Shown one piece after another: positions 1 to 37,480 of a DNA stretch of 64,000 nucleotides. The DNA is from a virus. The notes under the pieces are model-generated. The model saw only the letters and a program-made list of their open reading frames with translations. It did not search any database and was not told the DNA's origin. The stretch's first letter is position 1, and each line of letters begins with the position of its first letter. A program made the translations under genes and the position numbers. The stretch is taken from positions 1 to 64,000 of IMG/VR virus record IMGVR_UViG_3300000553_000012; one strand, 5' to 3'.

Positions 1-95
1 GGCGATATCGAGGATGTCGTGAGACAAACGGTCGTGGCCTGCGCTCCAAACGCCAGCGCCAGCCAAGCCGTTCCCGCGAAAAGTAAGCGCCTCAC
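1..95 (-). CDS. Partial gene (runs off window) with N-terminal signal peptide
   Basis: GTG at 95 overlaps the TGA of 92..742; reads MRRLLFAGTAWLALAFGAQA-TTVCL..., a Sec-type signal ending AQA. Not in ORF track. Confidence 0.55.
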   Translation of the reverse strand, partial: MRRLLFAGTAWLALAFGAQATTVCLTTSSIS

Positions 96-742
96 GGTCC
101 CTGATACCCCTGCATGTTGCAATAGACCGTCGTGAGCGACGTTGAGACAGTGAACTGCGCGGTTGTCTTGGATGAAACCGCCGCCGTCACTACCAGCGGC
201 GAACGAAGGTTGCCGACGATGAAGCCGCCGCCTGCGGTGATCGGCGGCAGGGGGAACACCGATGACGCCGTATCGTTGATCGTGATATAGGCCATGGATG
301 TTCCCGCGTCCGTGCGAAAACACTGAATGCCTGTAAGGTAGATTTTATAAGTGACGGCGGACAACTGAAGAACCGTCACCGCCGATCCCCCCGTCGTGCT
401 CGCTGTGCCCGACAGACGCAGGCCCGATGGTGCGACGGTTTCAGTGATGGCGCCCGTAGGATCGCACTCGGTCGGGCCTGGCTGACCATCCGCCGTCGAT
501 GACGGTGGATTAGTAGCGGCCCGGCAGGGCATGGGAGCCGCGCCTAGACCGTATAGGGCCTTGTCGAGACCAACCAGGGTGCCTGCGCCAGAGCCCCCCC
601 ACGCACTATCTGTCGTGGCTCCCTGCGACACGTTCGCGCCATCGGCGACCGTATTGGATAGAGGACCAGAAATGGTGCTCTGCGCGAACGAGGGCGACGC
701 AAGCGCGAGCAATGCGCCAAGAGTGCGAAGGAAGCGGCGCAT
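92..742 (-). CDS. Hypothetical beta-rich protein with signal peptide, GC-rich
   Basis: MRRFLRTLGALLALASPSFA signal; T/S/G-rich; start coupled to upstream stop. Confidence 0.7.
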   Translation of the reverse strand: MRRFLRTLGALLALASPSFAQSTISGPLSNTVADGANVSQGATTDSAWGGSGAGTLVGLDKALYGLGAAPMPCRAATNPPSSTADGQPGPTECDPTGAITETVAPSGLRLSGTASTTGGSAVTVLQLSAVTYKIYLTGIQCFRTDAGTSMAYITINDTASSVFPLPPITAGGGFIVGNLRSPLVVTAAVSSKTTAQFTVSTSLTTVYCNMQGYQGP

Positions 743-1284
743 TATTCGATACCCCAGTTAAACAGACAGTGGGCCGTGTCCAGCGTCAACGTGGGCCAAT
801 CAGTGGATGAGCACATGATCACGATCCCCGCGCTCGCCGGTATCGGAATGTCGCCGCCGGGCGTCCATGACCATGTTTGCGTCGGCGAAAGGGCCGCGCT
901 CGACAAGATCCTTGTGCCCGCTGACAGCGTCCCATTCGATGGGCAAGCCGTGGCGTTGACCACGAACACATAATCCGTCGCGGCGCCTGCGGCGATTTCA
1001 TGGGCGTCCATGTAGTAGATGTTGCCGGGGTTGGCCTTGATGACGTGGCAGGCTTCCGCCGCCTGAGATCCAAGGTTCCCCGAGCCGTCAAGATTATTAA
1101 AAGCGTATGGGAGTAATGAAGTCGGAACAACGATTGGTGTAGTATTTGGAGGAAAATTAGTGACTGTGACAGATTGTGTTGACGGAAAATTAGTGACTGT
1201 GACGGGCTGACCAGCAGAATATGCTAAAGTACTAAACATTATTCCTAATAATAGTGTTATATTTCTTATGAATTTATGTATCAT
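742..1284 (-). CDS. Hypothetical signal-peptide protein spanning the AT/GC junction
   Basis: Signal MIHKFIRNITLLLGIMFSTLAYSA; duplicated VTVTNFP; 5' part AT-rich, 3' part GC-rich. Confidence 0.7.
   Translation of the reverse strand: MIHKFIRNITLLLGIMFSTLAYSAGQPVTVTNFPSTQSVTVTNFPPNTTPIVVPTSLLPYAFNNLDGSGNLGSQAAEACHVIKANPGNIYYMDAHEIAAGAATDYVFVVNATACPSNGTLSAGTRILSSAALSPTQTWSWTPGGDIPIPASAGIVIMCSSTDWPTLTLDTAHCLFNWGIE
1151..1203. repeat. 20-bp direct repeat GGAAAATTAGTGACTGTGAC (1151-1170, 1184-1203)
   Basis: Exact copies, encoding VTVTNFP twice. Confidence 0.9.
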
Positions 1285-1655
1285 TTGTAAAAACTCACAT
1301 TGAGTACCGCGCCAGTGGTTTGTTGAATAAATTTTAAAGCTGAAAGATTTCCAGCAAATAACATTGTTTGACCAGACAAAAATGGAAATCCTACAGAAGC
1401 TGTAGGATTATTCCCATCGTCTCTCCATCTAATATCAGAATTTTCTACAGATATTATAGCATAAGTTGCTAATGATGGAATTACAGCTTGAAGATTTATT
1501 ACAGTAGACAAATTAGTAAATTGATGATATCCAAGTGGAGTAGCTTGATATGGACCTGAAGAAACTACAGTTCCAGAAGATGCTCCACCAGGTATGCCAT
1601 TTACTAAAATTGGTGTAGGGCTAGTCGCAAGCTGAATATTAATAACTTGGCTCAC
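1281..1655 (-). CDS. Putative virion structural protein
   Basis: Beta-rich ORF overlapping neighbours in the tail operon. Confidence 0.6.
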   Translation of the reverse strand: MSQVINIQLATSPTPILVNGIPGGASSGTVVSSGPYQATPLGYHQFTNLSTVINLQAVIPSLATYAIISVENSDIRWRDDGNNPTASVGFPFLSGQTMLFAGNLSALKFIQQTTGAVLNVSFYK

Positions 1656-32933: not shown

Positions 32934-33007
32934 TGATTTTATTCTACTCCAATTCCATAATTAAATGCAACCTGTTTGGATATAGGCCGGTTGCCCACCT
33001 ATTTTAA

Positions 33008-33232
33008 TTACCCGTTAGAAATAAAATTATTAAGACCAAGCGCCTTATTAATAATATCATGTTCTGTTGGATATCGAGGAAGTTTAGGCGCTTCTATAGA
33101 TGTATGATCTTGAACCACCGATATCTTATAACTCCATTCTTGTTCAATTAAACTTCTCTTTGAATGGTATTCTTCCATAAGAAGATCCTTGGCCATCTTA
33201 AGAAGTTCTAGTCTAATTAGATATGCATTCAT
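33008..33232 (-). CDS. Conserved phage hypothetical protein
   Basis: AY-IRLELLKMAKD-L...YPT--DII-KA--L--F; AGGA RBS. Confidence 0.75.
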   Translation of the reverse strand: MNAYLIRLELLKMAKDLLMEEYHSKRSLIEQEWSYKISVVQDHTSIEAPKLPRYPTEHDIINKALGLNNFISNG

Positions 33233-33261
33233 TTTTTTATTCCTGTGTTTGTGTGTGTTAA

Positions 33262-33556
33262 ATTGGGTCCGTTCTGGTGCTAGGTGGAACCCATACCCCG
33301 GAAAACTTACGCGGCTAAGCGGGTCTCCATAATACCATTATCGTTGGCATTTACACGTTTCTTGCGGTTAAGGTCGCTCGCTCACCTATTCTCCACGCTT
33401 CTACTCATCGGCAATCGATACTAGTCGCCCCCGTCATGACTACACATAGCTGATAACTTTTGTACCCTCAGCCGCTGGCGCTTTATATGTAGTCATGGTG
33501 GAGGCGGGGAGATTTGCACTCCCGTGTTACCAAACTTTTGTTACGCTTCAACGAAT
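33262..33556 (-). ncRNA. ssrA: Two-piece (circularly permuted) tmRNA, alphaproteobacterial type
   Basis: Minus strand: acceptor piece ending CGCCTCC-ACCA (3' end 33496); intervening hairpin; coding piece starting GGGGGCG (33432); tag frame 33348-33307 encodes ANDNGIMETRLAA*. Outer ends approximate. Confidence 0.92.
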
Positions 33557-33561
33557 ATTTT

Positions 33562-33569
33562 TATTTATA
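33562..33569 (-). promoter_or_regulatory. Late promoter TATAAATA upstream of tmRNA
   Basis: Exact consensus immediately 5' of the acceptor piece. Confidence 0.7.
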
Positions 33570-34100
33570 TTATTTTCTTTCGAAATGATAGATATTATAG
33601 TGATTAACTCTGTTTGAAAATTTATTTTTTTTCGAAATCGTTTCTGTTTTATGATTCCATCCTTTATCTCTCATAGATTTTTGAAAGTGCTTGTTGTCCA
33701 TAAGCCTATCATACATAGTTCCCAATCTTGGATCTGCTCCGGTAAAATGTATTTTATTAATACCATGTTTATCAACAAGATGATGTATAACATGCATCGA
33801 TTTACCAAATGCACCTATAGGCCCACCATGAGGCTGTCTTTTATCACTATATGACGATATATCGGTTGATGGGTCTTGGCTTGTTCCCATACCAACCTCT
33901 CCATCATTTGAGAGATAAACACAATGGTGTAAACCTTTATGCTTAAAGAAGGTATGATGAACACCCAATTCGGTCTTTGTTTCACCATTATCCATTTCAG
34001 CATTTGTGCCAAACTTTGTAGGAGTGTCAACGATTGATTCAGATAAACACCACTGATCAAAAGATAACAATATATTTTTATCTAAAAAAATGCTACTCAT
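33570..34100 (-). CDS. Hypothetical protein, putative internal head protein
   Basis: LLSFDQWCLSE resembles the T4 capsid-targeting sequence; CATAAATA upstream (34142-34149). Confidence 0.65.
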   Translation of the reverse strand: MSSIFLDKNILLSFDQWCLSESIVDTPTKFGTNAEMDNGETKTELGVHHTFFKHKGLHHCVYLSNDGEVGMGTSQDPSTDISSYSDKRQPHGGPIGAFGKSMHVIHHLVDKHGINKIHFTGADPRLGTMYDRLMDNKHFQKSMRDKGWNHKTETISKKNKFSNRVNHYNIYHFERK

Positions 34101-34116
34101 ATTTCATTTTCATATA

Positions 34117-34140
34117 AATTGCTGGGTCGACCCAGCAATT
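34117..34140. repeat. Perfect 24-bp palindrome AATTGCTGGGTCGACCCAGCAATT
   Basis: Self-reverse-complementary. Confidence 0.9.
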
Positions 34141-34146
34141 CTATTT

Positions 34147-34397
34147 ATGGCCCGCCCTATGCATCCGGATACCAGACACATTAATTTCTCGTCTGACCGA
34201 CGGGCAATCAGACAATATTCTATCTACTAACAATATATTCCACGATAGAATATGGAATATAAAGATTGTCGTTAAGCAGTTTGGGAATAACCCCTCATAG
34301 TGTGCATTCGACAATATCATTGGCTGCTGCTAACGCCATTTAACTCACTATCATCATCGCCGAGTTCAAAGCTACGGGCTGACTGTGTTGCACCATT
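34147..34397 (-). ncRNA. Candidate ~250-nt structured ncRNA with two pseudoknots
   Basis: No credible ORF; own sigma70 promoter; several stems whose G-U pairs work only on the minus strand. Confidence 0.65.
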
Positions 34398-34403
34398 AAT
34401 ATT

Positions 34404-34432
34404 AATATAAGCTTATTATGATTTATTGTCAA
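34404..34432 (-). promoter_or_regulatory. Sigma70-type promoter TTGACA-N17-TATATT
   Basis: -35 at 34432-34427, -10 at 34409-34404. Confidence 0.75.
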
Positions 34433-34604
34433 TATTTAAAATGCCATTTTTCCAATTTTCAGCAGCGGATTCTACATATTCAAGACTTTTCCTAGGAAAA
34501 TATACGGTATCAGTTACATTTTCGTTTTCAATTAAATCCATAGCCCATATAGAAAAATGGTCATCTTTATAATGAATTTGAAATATCCTAGTCGTTCTAG
34601 ACAT
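34416..34604 (-). CDS. Small hypothetical protein
   Basis: GGAG RBS; KS--YVE-AAENW motif seen in small T4-like ORFs. Confidence 0.7.
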   Translation of the reverse strand: MSRTTRIFQIHYKDDHFSIWAMDLIENENVTDTVYFPRKSLEYVESAAENWKNGILNIDNKS

Positions 34605-34689
34605 ATAATTTCTCCAATATATTGTCGGTCGCGATTAACATCCACCGACTCTAGCCACGGTTAGACCTGCGCCAGCTTTGTCGTATATA

Positions 34690-35664
34690 TTATGCCGCTT
34701 CAGCCATCTCTACAGCGAGATTGAGAGCTTGAACCTTCTTTGCTTGATTAGAACCAAACCAGGCACTAGTCATACGGGTATCAGCAGACCTACCAAGCAG
34801 GTGATCGGTAAGATACGTGACACCGTTATAGGCCTGCCACCAGCTACCCTCAGCATACTTAGCCCCCGGCTGAGTTTGAAGAACATCTATTGCTAGTTGT
34901 GCAGCCCGGCTGTTTGGCATATTTACGCGCTTAGACTCTTCCTTTTTATCGGAGGTCTTGGGAAAGACTCGGTTAAAATATTCGACAATGGTTTCATTGG
35001 TATATCGCTTAGAACCAAGATAAGCCGCCATCTCCTTGTACTTGACCAACTTTTCACTGGCGACACCCAAAGTTTCCTTTACCGCATCACCATCAAAGGC
35101 TCGGCGGTGATTAATCTTAACCATGCGCTGAGCAGTTGCACCAAGAGAAAGAGTTAGCGTATTGTTGCAAACCACTCGGATTGGAGTGAATCGCACATCA
35201 ATCGACTTACCAAATTGGTGAGGATTTGAAAAAAGAAGATAACCATCGACCTTATCACCACCAAAGAGTTCAAAAGAATCCTTGATCTTAGCCAGACCCC
35301 AAACATGGGTGCCACCCTTAAGTGATCCCGCCGTATGCATTTCCATATCACCTGCGGCCACAAAGTCATTGAAAAATTCAAAGGCTTCACGATTTTGACA
35401 TGGATTCCAACTATCCGTTACAATAGTTAGAACCGATCCGTCGGTTTCACGCACAAGCGCTTCGACTCCAGTGGCCACTTGGCGGCCCTTAAATTCGCCG
35501 TAAAGTGGAATCTTTTTAACTTCCCAATCGAGTCCAGCAGCTTCAAGCATTTGCTGAGGAGTCAAATCGGGAAGAACCTTTGTTCCTAAACCATGCCAAG
35601 GTACTTCACCCACGTAAGCATGTGAATAATCACCATTGGATAGTTGTTCAAGCATATGCGCCAT
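34690..35664 (-). CDS. DUF932-family protein (early gene)
   Basis: MAH...PWHGLG, AGLDW-V, QN-EAF-FF, TAGSL-GG, TPIRVVCNNTL, W-AYN-VT---DH. Confidence 0.9.
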   Translation of the reverse strand: MAHMLEQLSNGDYSHAYVGEVPWHGLGTKVLPDLTPQQMLEAAGLDWEVKKIPLYGEFKGRQVATGVEALVRETDGSVLTIVTDSWNPCQNREAFEFFNDFVAAGDMEMHTAGSLKGGTHVWGLAKIKDSFELFGGDKVDGYLLFSNPHQFGKSIDVRFTPIRVVCNNTLTLSLGATAQRMVKINHRRAFDGDAVKETLGVASEKLVKYKEMAAYLGSKRYTNETIVEYFNRVFPKTSDKKEESKRVNMPNSRAAQLAIDVLQTQPGAKYAEGSWWQAYNGVTYLTDHLLGRSADTRMTSAWFGSNQAKKVQALNLAVEMAEAA

Positions 35665-36457: not shown

Positions 36458-36489
36458 AAAGCCTCCGGAGAAATCTGGAGGCTTTTTTT
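36458..36489 (+). terminator. Rho-independent terminator
   Basis: AAAGCCTCCGGA-gaaa-TCTGGAGGCTTT followed by a T-run. Confidence 0.9.
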
Positions 36490-36491
36490 AT

Positions 36492-37037
36492 TTAAAAATT
36501 CAACGATATACCGGGGCCAATAAGATCATTTGAATGATGTGAAAACTCATGAGAATATGAAAAATATAATGATATTTTATTGTTGATTTTATATGTAAAA
36601 TCGGTTGAGCATTGAATTGCTTGCATATCATATTTTTTATTAAATGCATTTTGATATGTAATGTTTATATCAGCTTGTAATTTAGTTGTTATATTTTTTT
36701 GATATCCGACAACTGTATTATAAAACAATGTATTGTTTTGATTTAATTTAAAATTAGTAAAAGCATCGCCAATAACACCAGATACATAAAATTCTTTAGA
36801 AAGATTATATGTTCCCGAAACAGAAATTTGTTGATTTAAATTCAAACCAACTTCAGTACTAATATCTATACTAAATACTAATGGTATTTTTTTAAAATAA
36901 AGATTATCGATAAACGTATCGATATAAAGATTTTTTTCTCCACCGTAATTATTTTTATATTCTAATGATTGTGTCAATGTCCCGGCATTGACAAATGAAC
37001 CATATAATACGGCTAAAATAAAAAAAAACTTATACAC
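36492..37037 (-). CDS. Second outer-membrane beta-barrel-like protein
   Basis: GTG start after CAGGAG; signal ending VNA-GTLT (mature start as in 35877); C-terminal ...GISLNF. Confidence 0.7.
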   Translation of the reverse strand: MYKFFFILAVLYGSFVNAGTLTQSLEYKNNYGGEKNLYIDTFIDNLYFKKIPLVFSIDISTEVGLNLNQQISVSGTYNLSKEFYVSGVIGDAFTNFKLNQNNTLFYNTVVGYQKNITTKLQADINITYQNAFNKKYDMQAIQCSTDFTYKINNKISLYFSYSHEFSHHSNDLIGPGISLNF

Positions 37038-37039
37038 GA

Positions 37040-37480
37040 CTACTCCTGTATTGAAAATAATGATACAGTTTTATTTTTCTTTCTATACCAACGTGAAAGA
37101 ATATTATCGTTATAATATTCTTCACTATTCAATACATCGCGTATAACTTGTTCTTTCATTTCATAATAATTTACATCGCCTCTGGAAACATGAAGAGAAA
37201 GGATCGTTCGGCTAAACGATCCTTTTCCATATAATTCTACGTCTTCTTTGAGAGACTTTGAACTTCCATAATATTTTTTCCAGTCGGAAAATTTACGAAT
37301 AACTTTTCTTCTAGTTTTACCTTTTTGAACTACTCTGTTAGTAGAATAGAAGAATTTTTTTCCGATATATTTTTTATTTGTAATTTTATTTTGTATAATA
37401 TATACAAAACCAAAAGAATTGCCGATATGCTCTTCTCTAAAAGGTGTTCCGTTCCAAAGCCAGGGATTTTCATAATCCAC
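37040..37480 (-). CDS. GIY-YIG family endonuclease
   Basis: GFVYIIQN-----KYIGKK...SDW--YYGSS...F-R-IL...YYN. Confidence 0.85.
   Translation of the reverse strand: MDYENPWLWNGTPFREEHIGNSFGFVYIIQNKITNKKYIGKKFFYSTNRVVQKGKTRRKVIRKFSDWKKYYGSSKSLKEDVELYGKGSFSRTILSLHVSRGDVNYYEMKEQVIRDVLNSEEYYNDNILSRWYRKKNKTVSLFSIQE

What the first reader, a model, noticed from the sequence alone, without database searches (positions are those of the whole stretch)
34117..34432. Unannotated ~250-nt RNA gene with its own sigma70 promoter and two pseudoknots
Seen on the minus strand: TTGACA-N17-TATATT (34432-34404), then no credible ORF but a chain of structures: AACTC/GAGTT and TGGC/GCCA hairpins; an ATTGTCG/CGACAAT-closed domain; a 9+9 bp H-type pseudoknot (TATATTCCA/TGGAATATA crossed by TATTCTATC/GATAGAATA, 34216-34261); a 9-bp hairpin GTCTGATTG-CCCGT-CGGTCAGAC (34191-34213) whose loop can pair with GCGGG at 34151-34155; and a 10-bp hairpin (34159-34181). 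G-U pairs fix the strand. A perfect 24-bp palindrome follows. I do not recognise it as tRNA, RNase P, SRP, 6S or a known ribozyme. Inference: an early phage ncRNA; tandem pseudoknots suggest a decoy role (for example mimicry of type III toxin-antitoxin antitoxin RNAs) or catalysis, both speculative.
Basis: partly seen in the sequence, partly recalled or inferred. Interest (0 to 1): 0.78.

Follow-up and report, generated by a model that had tools for sequence, protein, structure and literature searches.

The report
Orphan structured non-coding stretch beside phage tmRNA
A freshwater T4-like phage carries a 315-base gene-free stretch with a strong promoter and unusually stable RNA hairpins just upstream of its ribosome-rescue RNA gene. 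Nothing like it was found in any other sequence, so it is probably a folded leader or small RNA of unknown role.

Summary
On the minus strand, 34101-34415 is a non-coding gap. It lies between a 62-aa ORF and a 176-aa ORF that directly precedes a two-piece tmRNA.

What is there:
- a near-consensus sigma70-type promoter (34432-34404)
- an interleaved perfect 9+9 inverted repeat, unique in the 96-kb genome
- two G·U-containing 10-11-bp hairpins that exist only on the minus strand
- the genome's longest perfect palindrome (24 bp)

Stems of 10 bp or more are enriched (5 against 0.85 expected, P=0.002) and the fold z-score is -2.8.

- No Rfam family matches.
- No homologue appeared in about 90 related loci, whole related phage genomes, GenBank phages or lake metagenomes.
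- Four lake metagenomes from 2012-2020 carry the gap unchanged, so covariation cannot be tested.
- No RNA run was listed.
- The 5' third is not structured above chance.
- The second "pseudoknot" is at chance level.
- The 9+9 stems cannot both form at full length. As separate hairpins they are equally stable alternatives.
- There are no tandem repeats, so it is not a ToxI-like antitoxin.

The palindrome has a poor U-tail compared with this phage's clear terminators. It sits 16 nt before the next gene, which has no sigma70-type promoter of its own.

Best reading: a transcribed, structured leader with leaky termination, which may also yield a ~280-nt RNA. A tmRNA-tag-like mini-frame (ALAA-AND) in the gap is an untested lead.

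The parts
34404..34432 (-). Sigma70-type early promoter: -35 TTGACA at 34432-34427, 17-nt spacer, -10 TATATT at 34409-34404. The predicted start is near A34397.
   Evidence: 11 of 12 matches. In this genome such sites lie 11-55 nt before ORFs, but this one lies 303 nt before the next. An unrelated contig in a lake metagenome shares just 34402-34434 with 3 mismatches (tables 7 and 8).
34265..34397 (-). 5' third of the putative transcript. It is weakly structured and holds two tiny same-frame reading frames: 34396-34340 (18 codons) and 34339-34295 (14 codons).
   Evidence: The fold of 34268-34318 has z=-0.7. The centroid structure keeps only two short hairpins here. Frames are read.
34295..34342 (-). 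UAAAU followed by the mini-frame M-ALAA-AND-IVECTL-stop, which carries words typical of tmRNA tags.
   Evidence: The only other tag-like site in six frames of the 96-kb genome is the real tmRNA tag. Both words in one frame occurred in 1 of 40000 shuffles. A tmRNA coding-piece HMM gives no hit.
34215..34261 (-). Interleaved perfect inverted repeats S1 (34261-34253 with 34242-34234) and S2 (34252-34244 with 34224-34216). They form either a bistable pair of hairpins or a trimmed H-type pseudoknot.
   Evidence: 0 of 3000 shuffles, and unique in the genome. Each hairpin alone is worth -10 kcal/mol.
34189..34215 (-). 11-bp hairpin with 3 G.U pairs and loop CCCGU.
   Evidence: -12.3 kcal/mol, z=-3.6. 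It is kept in the centroid structure.
34159..34181 (-). 10-bp hairpin with 3 G.U pairs and loop UAU.
   Evidence: -11.1 kcal/mol, z=-4.6. It is kept in the centroid structure.
34142..34149 (-). CATAAATA, a one-off variant of the T4-type late promoter box, 1 nt before the palindrome and 41 nt before the ATG of the 176-aa gene.
   Evidence: 13 of 25 TATAAATA boxes lie within 80 nt of an ORF start, but only 2 of 8 CATAAATA boxes do. The role of this box is uncertain.
34117..34140 (-). Perfect 24-bp GC-rich palindrome. As RNA it is an 11-bp hairpin followed by UUUAUAU. It is a candidate leaky terminator, or a processing or protein-binding site.
   Evidence: -16.5 kcal/mol, z=-5.8. It is the longest perfect palindrome of the genome. 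The scan flags it as terminator-like only on the plus strand, whereas the clear terminators at 36458-36485 and 30399-30377 have T5+ tails.
33570..34100 (-). Downstream 176-aa gene. The family has no Pfam or PHROG match and a weak GNAT-like fold. It starts 16 nt after the palindrome.
   Evidence: In relatives the family sits beside tRNA or tmRNA genes in most loci.
33262..33623 (-). Two-piece (permuted) tmRNA with tag ANDNGIMETRLAA. A TATAAATA box lies at 33569-33562.
   Evidence: Rfam RF04321 at 85.8 bits and RF01849 at 59.1 bits. Tag. Promoter box.

Best explanation
The gap is a transcribed, non-coding, structured RNA segment of an early transcription unit. I read it as a long leader with leaky termination rather than a fully separate gene.

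Proposed mechanism:
1. Host sigma70 RNA polymerase starts near 34397 at the promoter 34432-34404.
2. The first ~130 nt are loosely folded.
3. The next ~150 nt form a chain of stable stem-loops: the S1/S2 element, then two G.U-containing hairpins, then the palindromic hairpin.
4. At the palindrome (34140-34117) some transcripts stop, giving a ~280-nt RNA. The rest read through into the 176-aa gene and on into the tmRNA precursor.
5. The two mutually exclusive, equally stable hairpins S1 and S2 could set which fold, and so which outcome, prevails.

Shown: the promoter match, the absence of coding signal, the strand-specific excess of structure, and the weak U-tail.

Inferred: transcription itself, the 5' and 3' ends, read-through, and any regulatory effect.
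For: Promoter:
- 11 of 12 matches.
- The same class of site sits 11-55 nt before ORFs elsewhere in this phage.
- The 33-nt promoter module recurs in an unrelated lake contig.

Non-coding:
- No tRNA or Rfam hit.
- The 59-aa frame lacks a Shine-Dalgarno sequence and homologues.
- No coding remnants by tblastn against the held loci.

Structure:
- z=-2.8 on the minus strand against -1.8 on the plus strand.
- Excess of long stems, P=0.002.
- Six G.U pairs confine two hairpins to the minus-strand RNA.
- GC is 0.40 against 0.31 for non-coding DNA of this genome.

Leader rather than separate gene:
- The palindrome ends 16 nt before the ATG.
- No other sigma70-type site serves the 176-aa gene.
- Its minus-strand tail is poor next to the T5+ tails of this phage's clear terminators.
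- There is no terminator between the tmRNA and the next gene, so this is a long operon with embedded RNAs.
Against: - There are no expression data of any kind.
- There is no homologue, so there is no evidence of selection on the fold.
- The gap is invariant in four metagenomes, which is uninformative.
- The structure excess is only in the top ~1-3% of genome windows, not extreme, and some coding windows score higher.
- Relatives express the 176-aa family without any such leader, with small ORFs or tRNAs abutting it. The leader is therefore dispensable for that gene.
- A CATAAATA box could give the gene its own late start.
- The perfect Watson-Crick symmetry of S1, S2 and the palindrome is equally compatible with DNA-level sites.
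Confidence: 0.42

Rival explanations
1. Stand-alone, trans-acting early small RNA of ~280 nt, running from the promoter to the palindromic terminator. It would act on a host or phage target as a decoy, sponge or antisense RNA.
For: - It has a promoter and an end hairpin.
- GC is elevated and the hairpins are strand-specific.
- Relatives have stable RNA genes (tRNAs) in this slot.
Against: - The U-tail is weak, and the downstream gene needs read-through.
- No pairing to phage translation start regions beyond shuffled controls.
- No homologue and no Rfam family.
- No tandem repeats, so it is not like ToxI.
Confidence: 0.2
2. Spacer or relic with no RNA function of its own. The slot is hypervariable: cassettes of tRNAs and small ORFs are swapped here. 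The gap would be leftover or recently acquired sequence that keeps only a promoter and a hairpin, possibly including decayed pieces of a tmRNA message region.
For: - The DUF932-to-tmRNA interval differs in every relative.
- The gap is unique to this lineage.
- The 5' third is unstructured.
- Tag-like words ALAA-AND preceded by UAAAU lie 1 kb from a real tmRNA.
Against: - The excess of long stems with G.U pairs on one strand, the unique 9+9 interleaved repeat and the 24-bp palindrome are all hard to get by decay.
- Phage genomes are compact, and this phage has only about 17 other gaps of 120 nt or more.
- The tmRNA HMM and Rfam models see no relic.
Confidence: 0.22
3. DNA-level element. The perfect palindrome and the interleaved perfect repeats would be protein-binding or recombination sites, such as an operator for a dimeric regulator placed between a late-promoter-like box and the 176-aa gene.
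For: - S1, S2 and the palindrome are perfect Watson-Crick and so symmetric on both strands.
- Even the 4-nt centre of the palindrome is self-complementary.
- A CATAAATA box abuts the palindrome.
Against: - The two G.U hairpins make sense only as RNA.
- No second copy of any of these sites exists elsewhere in the genome.
- No DNA-binding gene was identified next to it.
Confidence: 0.1
4. One or more small proteins are encoded here: the 59-aa frame 34141-34320 with a hydrophobic stretch, or the 18-codon and 14-codon frames at the 5' end.
For: - The open frames exist.
- The predicted start at 34397 would put an AUG at the very 5' end, giving a leaderless message.
- Small membrane proteins are common in early regions of phages.
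Against: - No Shine-Dalgarno sequence before the 59-aa frame, though fewer than half of this phage's genes have one.
- No homologue, and the frame is not itself in the 5.8-billion-protein set, although the neighbouring gene is.
- No PHROG match.
- The frame is occupied by the strongest hairpins.
Confidence: 0.06

Closest known systems
Phage T4 stable RNAs of unknown function (species 1 and 2, rnaC and rnaD) encoded in its tRNA gene cluster. Cited from my own knowledge, not checked here.
   Same: - A non-coding, structured RNA of a few hundred nucleotides or less in a T4-like phage.
- It lies in the stable-RNA region and is co-transcribed with genes for translation RNAs (here a tmRNA).
- Its function is unknown.
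   Different: - No sequence or model comparison was possible, because no such family scored in the Rfam search.
- In this phage the tRNA genes lie 40 kb away.
- No processing signals or CCA-type ends were found.
Translational operator in the T4 gene 32 mRNA leader, a 5' pseudoknot followed by an unstructured tract. Cited from my own knowledge.
   Same: A structured element with pseudoknot potential in the long 5' leader of a gene in a T4-like phage.
   Different: - Here the element lies ~115-160 nt before the start codon, with three more hairpins in between.
- The connecting loops are too short for the full pseudoknot.
- The downstream protein is not a known RNA binder.
Type III toxin-antitoxin antitoxin RNAs (ToxI and relatives).
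   Same: Small phage-related or defence-related RNAs that fold into pseudoknots.
   Different: - ToxI-type RNAs are tandem arrays of ~36-nt repeats next to a ToxN-type endoribonuclease gene.
- Here there are no tandem repeats and no such gene.
Coding piece of two-piece tmRNA (Rfam RF04321 and RF01849), as in the neighbouring gene and in the OM43 phage Melnitz (PMC9004378).
   Same: - UAAAU lies shortly before a short frame that contains AND.
- A stop codon is followed by a G-rich hairpin.
- It is on the same strand, 1 kb from a real tmRNA.
   Different: - ALAA precedes AND instead of ending the tag, and the frame ends in CTL.
- There is no tRNA-like part and no acceptor-stem strand.
- No hit with Rfam models or with an HMM of 9 coding pieces.
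Promoter-early stem-loop cassettes of T4-type phages (Arbiol et al. 2010). Cited from my own knowledge, not read here.
   Same: - An early sigma70-type promoter associated with stem-loops in a hyperplastic region of small early genes.
- The promoter module is shared with an unrelated contig.
   Different: - Those cassettes are short and repeated many times per genome, with the stem-loop upstream of the promoter.
- Here ~300 nt of unique structured sequence lies downstream, and no repeat of it exists in the genome.

Membership tests
Any Rfam 15 family (4227 models, including tRNA, tmRNA, RNase P, 6S, SRP, riboswitches and small ribozymes) | Covariance-model score at or above the family's gathering threshold | tested here: not met
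   The gathering-threshold scan of the window found only the tmRNA. The permissive scan of 33000-35000 at E up to 10 gave only noise over the gap, with scores 13-23 bits against thresholds of 57-102.
tRNA or tRNA-like gene, which occupies this slot in relatives | Cloverleaf detectable by ARAGORN or the Rfam tRNA model | tested here: not met
   ARAGORN finds none in the window. There is no tRNA hit at E up to 10. Relatives have tRNA-Ser, Arg, Met or Ile here.
Type III antitoxin RNA (ToxI-like) | Tandem direct repeats of a ~34-36-nt unit | tested here: not met
   Tandem Repeats Finder at minimum score 30 finds only a 6-nt micro-repeat at 34097-34115. The only direct repeats are two 8-10-nt pairs.
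Type III antitoxin RNA (ToxI-like) | Adjacent ToxN/AbiQ-type endoribonuclease gene | tested here: not met
   The neighbouring ORFs have no such Pfam or PHROG match. The model of the downstream protein resembles GNAT acetyltransferases instead.
tmRNA coding piece | Sequence or structure match to tmRNA models | tested here: not met
   No Rfam tmRNA hit in the gap. An nhmmer profile of 9 coding pieces finds only the real tmRNA at E up to 100.
tmRNA coding piece | Tag reading frame (AND...ALAA-stop) behind a UAAAU-type resume context | tested here: inconclusive
   UAAAU-G-ALAA-AND-IVECTL-stop is present and rare by shuffling. However, the order of the words is inverted and the end is not LAA. The same string occurs inside ordinary proteins of other phages.
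tmRNA coding piece | 5' strand able to complete the acceptor stem with the acceptor piece (GGGGGCG-type) | tested here: not met
   Reading shows no such strand. The nearest G-rich run, GGGCGGG at 34157-34151, does not pair in register with CGCCUCC.
H-type pseudoknot | Two stems with crossing topology | tested here: met
   S1 and S2 are each 9 perfect base pairs and interleaved. This occurred in 0 of 3000 shuffles.
H-type pseudoknot | Connecting loops long enough to span the grooves | tested here: not met
   From the sequence, there are 0 nt between the S1 5' arm and the S2 5' arm, 1 nt before the S1 3' arm, and 9 nt in the last loop. By established pseudoknot geometry a 9-bp second stem cannot be spanned by 0 nt, so only trimmed stems could coexist. 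No pseudoknot energy program was available.
Intrinsic (rho-independent) terminator | GC-rich hairpin immediately followed by a U-run on the transcribed strand | tested here: inconclusive
   The hairpin is strong at -16.5 kcal/mol. On the minus strand the tail is UUUAUAU only after two A-U pairs, and the scan accepts it only on the plus strand.
Sigma70-type promoter | -35 and -10 hexamers with 16-18-nt spacing | tested here: met
   TTGACA-17-TATATT. Whether it is used has not been tested.

The most novel reading that the evidence does not exclude
The gap encodes a lineage-specific RNA that carries a second, 'headless' tmRNA-style message. The message is UAAAU, then a 14-codon frame with the tag words ALAA-AND, then a stop codon in front of a G-rich hairpin. 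Behind it lies a bistable pseudoknot/hairpin module. The whole is expressed early, next to the phage's own two-piece tmRNA. Such an RNA could compete with, or re-programme, ribosome rescue and tagging during infection.
Probability: 0.06. Interest if true: 0.8.

Novelty: new member of a known kind. Interest (0 to 1): 0.36.

Why it matters
Phages of abundant streamlined freshwater and marine bacteria carry tmRNA and tRNA genes whose expression and role are poorly understood (PMC9004378).

If this is a real structured leader or small RNA in front of the tmRNA unit, it would be a handle on how such phages time or tune ribosome rescue. It would also add to the few phage non-coding RNAs known outside model phages.

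As it stands it is a single-genome orphan. That limits what can be learned without transcript mapping or the discovery of diverged relatives.

Tried and rejected
Homologue searches, all empty or chance-level:
- blastn (word size 7) and nhmmer of the gap against 80 DUF932-anchored IMG/VR loci and L001.
- The same against 8 metagenome loci of the 176-aa family.
- Three whole related virus records.
- GenBank phages at E up to 1.
- An exact scan of IMG/VR for the 11-bp hairpin gave one chance hit inside a coding region, L085.
- A covariance model of 34141-34265 found only itself in 654 kb of loci and nothing in 5 related genomes.
- The 62-aa upstream ORF has no relative in IMG/VR.

Tools and data that were unavailable or uninformative:
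- No RNA holder was listed among the sequencing runs.
- Contigs of four DNA runs showed no differences inside the gap, so there is no covariation data.

Ideas tested and dropped:
- Antisense pairing of the RNA to 126 phage translation start regions is no better than for shuffled RNA.
- tblastn of all gap frames against the held loci gave nothing at E below 0.3.
- A glutamine riboswitch as in Melnitz, ribozymes, and large phage RNAs of the GOLLD and ROOL type: none of the Rfam 15 families scored.
- Local alignment of the gap to the phage's own tmRNA and to relatives' tmRNAs is not above shuffles.
- The tag-word pattern in IMG/VR gave 11 hits, all inside ordinary coding regions.
- A duplex search against the tmRNA timed out and was not repeated.

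Full report
**Setting**

The window is part of a 96-kb IMG/VR virus record with 33% GC and T4-like gene content. Its closest cultured relatives by DNA are the Melnitz phages of OM43 bacteria, which also encode a two-piece tmRNA (PMC9004378).

On the minus strand the order is:
- a DUF932 gene (35664-34690; Pfam E=1e-38)
- a 62-aa ORF (34604-34416)
- the 315-nt gap (34415-34101)
- a 176-aa ORF (34100-33570)
- a permuted tmRNA (33623-33262; RF04321 at 85.8 bits and RF01849 at 59.1 bits)

The tmRNA tag is ANDNGIMETRLAA. A TATAAATA late-promoter box sits directly in front of the tmRNA.

Yes. The promoter TTGACA-17-TATATT is the best minus-strand match in the region. In this genome, sites of that quality typically lie 11-55 nt before an ORF. 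This one lies 303 nt before the next. An unrelated 894-nt contig in one lake metagenome shares only the 33 nt of the promoter with 3 mismatches, so the promoter looks like a reusable module.

Their statistical weight differs by region.

The 3' two-thirds carry the signal:
- Stems of 10 bp or more: 5 observed against 0.85 in shuffles, P=0.002.
- The interleaved perfect 9+9 repeat never arose in 3000 shuffles and is the only such site in the genome.
- The 24-bp palindrome is the longest perfect palindrome in the genome.
- The hairpins at 34215-34189 and 34181-34159 hold three G.U pairs each. They therefore exist only in a minus-strand RNA, and each has z of -3.6 to -4.6.

For the whole putative transcript, z is -2.8 on the minus strand against -1.8 on the plus strand. 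The gap lies in the top 1.3% of genome windows after GC correction, and in the top 3% for strand asymmetry. Its GC content (0.40) exceeds that of the genome's non-coding DNA (0.31).

The 5' third (34397-34265) is no more structured than chance. The second 'pseudoknot' is a 5-bp match that I estimate arises by chance about one time in three. Its 3' partner also complements a second GCCCGU, at 34379-34374.

**The first 'pseudoknot'**

S1 and S2 are real as complementary segments. However, the connecting segments are 0 nt, 1 nt and 9 nt. By the known geometry of H-type pseudoknots, two full 9-bp stems cannot coexist with these loops. Only trimmed stems could.

Taken as separate hairpins they are mutually exclusive and have the same predicted energy, -10 kcal/mol each. 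The minimum-energy fold extends S1 into a ~20-bp irregular hairpin that excludes S2. A two-state element is therefore as good a description as a pseudoknot. I could not run a pseudoknot energy model.

**Coding or not**

- The 59-aa frame across the hairpins has no Shine-Dalgarno sequence, no PHROG match and no homologue. It does not itself occur in a collection of 5.8 billion predicted proteins, although the neighbouring 176-aa protein does.
- No frame of the gap matches anything in the held loci.
- No tRNA, tmRNA, riboswitch or ribozyme model scores over the gap.

**Comparative evidence**

None could be obtained. The gap has no detectable relative in any of the following:
- 80 loci anchored on DUF932, whose proteins are up to 78% identical
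- 9 loci anchored on the 176-aa family
- whole related virus genomes
- GenBank phages
- a covariance-model search

The DUF932-to-tmRNA interval is a swap zone. In relatives it is packed with different small ORFs. The slot just upstream of the 176-aa family holds tRNA genes or an abutting small ORF.

Thirteen or more freshwater metagenome runs hold the stretch. Contigs from four runs dated 2012 to 2020 show no difference inside the gap and only two in the flanks. This says that the phage is a persistent, near-clonal lake population. It gives no information about selection on the stems.

**How it most likely works**

The palindromic hairpin is as strong as this phage's clear terminators at 36458-36485 and 30399-30377. 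Those, however, have tails of five or more T, while the palindrome's minus-strand tail is UUUAUAU after two A-U pairs.

The 176-aa gene starts 16 nt later and has no sigma70-type promoter of its own. Only a one-off late-box variant, CATAAATA, abuts the palindrome, and variants of that kind are rarely found before genes here. There is also no terminator after the tmRNA.

I therefore favour a long structured leader with leaky termination. In this reading the early promoter fires, part of the transcripts end at the palindrome as a ~280-nt RNA, and the rest continue into the 176-aa gene and the tmRNA precursor. The S1/S2 element is a possible fold switch.

Confidence in this reading is 0.42. The rivals are:
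- a separate trans-acting small RNA (0.20)
- a functionless spacer or relic (0.22)
- a DNA-level site (0.10)
- small proteins (0.06)

**A lead on the tmRNA**

Earlier notes of this scan on other phages reported tag-like frames in leaders. Prompted by them, I translated the gap.

One frame reads M-ALAA-AND-IVECTL-stop (34339-34295) and is preceded by UAAAU. That is the context found before the resume codon in the tmRNAs of this phage and 7 of the 10 relatives read. ALAA and AND are the end and start words of these tags.

In favour of a real signal:
- In six frames of the whole genome, only the real tag and this site match such patterns.
- Both words fell in one frame in 1 of 40000 shuffles.

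Against:
- The order of the words is inverted, and the frame does not end in LAA.
- There is no tRNA-like part.
- Neither Rfam nor a profile of nine coding pieces sees any similarity.
- The same string occurs inside ordinary proteins of other phages.

I treat this as an unexplained coincidence or a relic, with a small chance (about 0.06) of a functional 'headless' message.

**Comparison with known systems**

- It is not a ToxI-type antitoxin. There are no tandem repeats and no ToxN-type neighbour.
- It works most like two T4 precedents, which I cite from memory: the stable RNAs of unknown function in the T4 tRNA cluster, and the structured leader of gene 32.
- It belongs to no curated family.

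**Verdict**

This is a real, statistically unusual, non-coding structured stretch behind a credible promoter. It is an orphan of one phage lineage. It is of moderate interest and cannot be resolved without transcript data or diverged relatives.

Noticed in passing
window 33570-34100 (-), and loci L001, L086-L093: The 176-aa protein family has no Pfam or PHROG match. In most related loci with enough flank it sits beside tRNA or tmRNA genes. An AlphaFold2 model (pLDDT 65) matches almost only GNAT acetyltransferases, weakly: Foldseek E 0.008-0.1 and VIA-align Z 5.3-6.6. A conserved R..P.GAFGK loop lies where GNATs bind acetyl-CoA. It may be an acyltransferase linked to translation RNAs.
   Followed up: partly
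window 34295-34342 (-): The mini-frame M-ALAA-AND-IVECTL-stop behind UAAAU carries tmRNA-tag words in inverted order, 1 kb upstream of the real tmRNA. It is rare by shuffling, but no tmRNA model supports it.
   Followed up: partly
window 33262-33623 (-): ARAGORN misses the phage's permuted tmRNA, but Rfam finds it. The tag is ANDNGIMETRLAA. A perfect TATAAATA box at 33569-33562 lies just after the stop codon of the 176-aa gene, so the tmRNA probably has a late start of its own as well as early read-through.
   Followed up: partly
L001 3567-3737 and 3836-3915: In the closest relative of the 176-aa gene, the equivalent slot holds tRNA-Ser, an unassigned GC-rich 170-nt stretch bracketed by TGCTGGG...CCCAGCAAT (the arms of the window's palindrome), and a tRNA-like sequence with a T-arm that ARAGORN does not call. 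Rfam gives nothing for either.
   Followed up: partly
window 34402-34434: An unrelated 894-nt contig in lake metagenome run X10 shares only this 33-nt promoter stretch (3 mismatches), with different sequence on both sides. This hints that early promoters move as cassettes among co-occurring phages.
   Followed up: no
window 1-1300: The first ~700 bases have 61-65% GC, against 33% for the genome, and fold strongly on both strands. The composition is foreign to the rest of the phage.
   Followed up: no
window 36856-37275 (-): These are the most structured minus-strand windows of the genome after GC correction (residual -3.8 to -3.9). They lie across the start of the AT-rich beta-barrel-like ORF 36492-37037 and the end of ORF 37040-37480.
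   Followed up: no
G000 73954-74112 (outside the window): A 159-nt intergenic gap near the phage's tRNA genes (tRNAs at 73040-77346) has the strongest fold signal of all gaps (z=-4.7 on the minus strand, GC 0.38). It is another candidate structured RNA.
   Followed up: no
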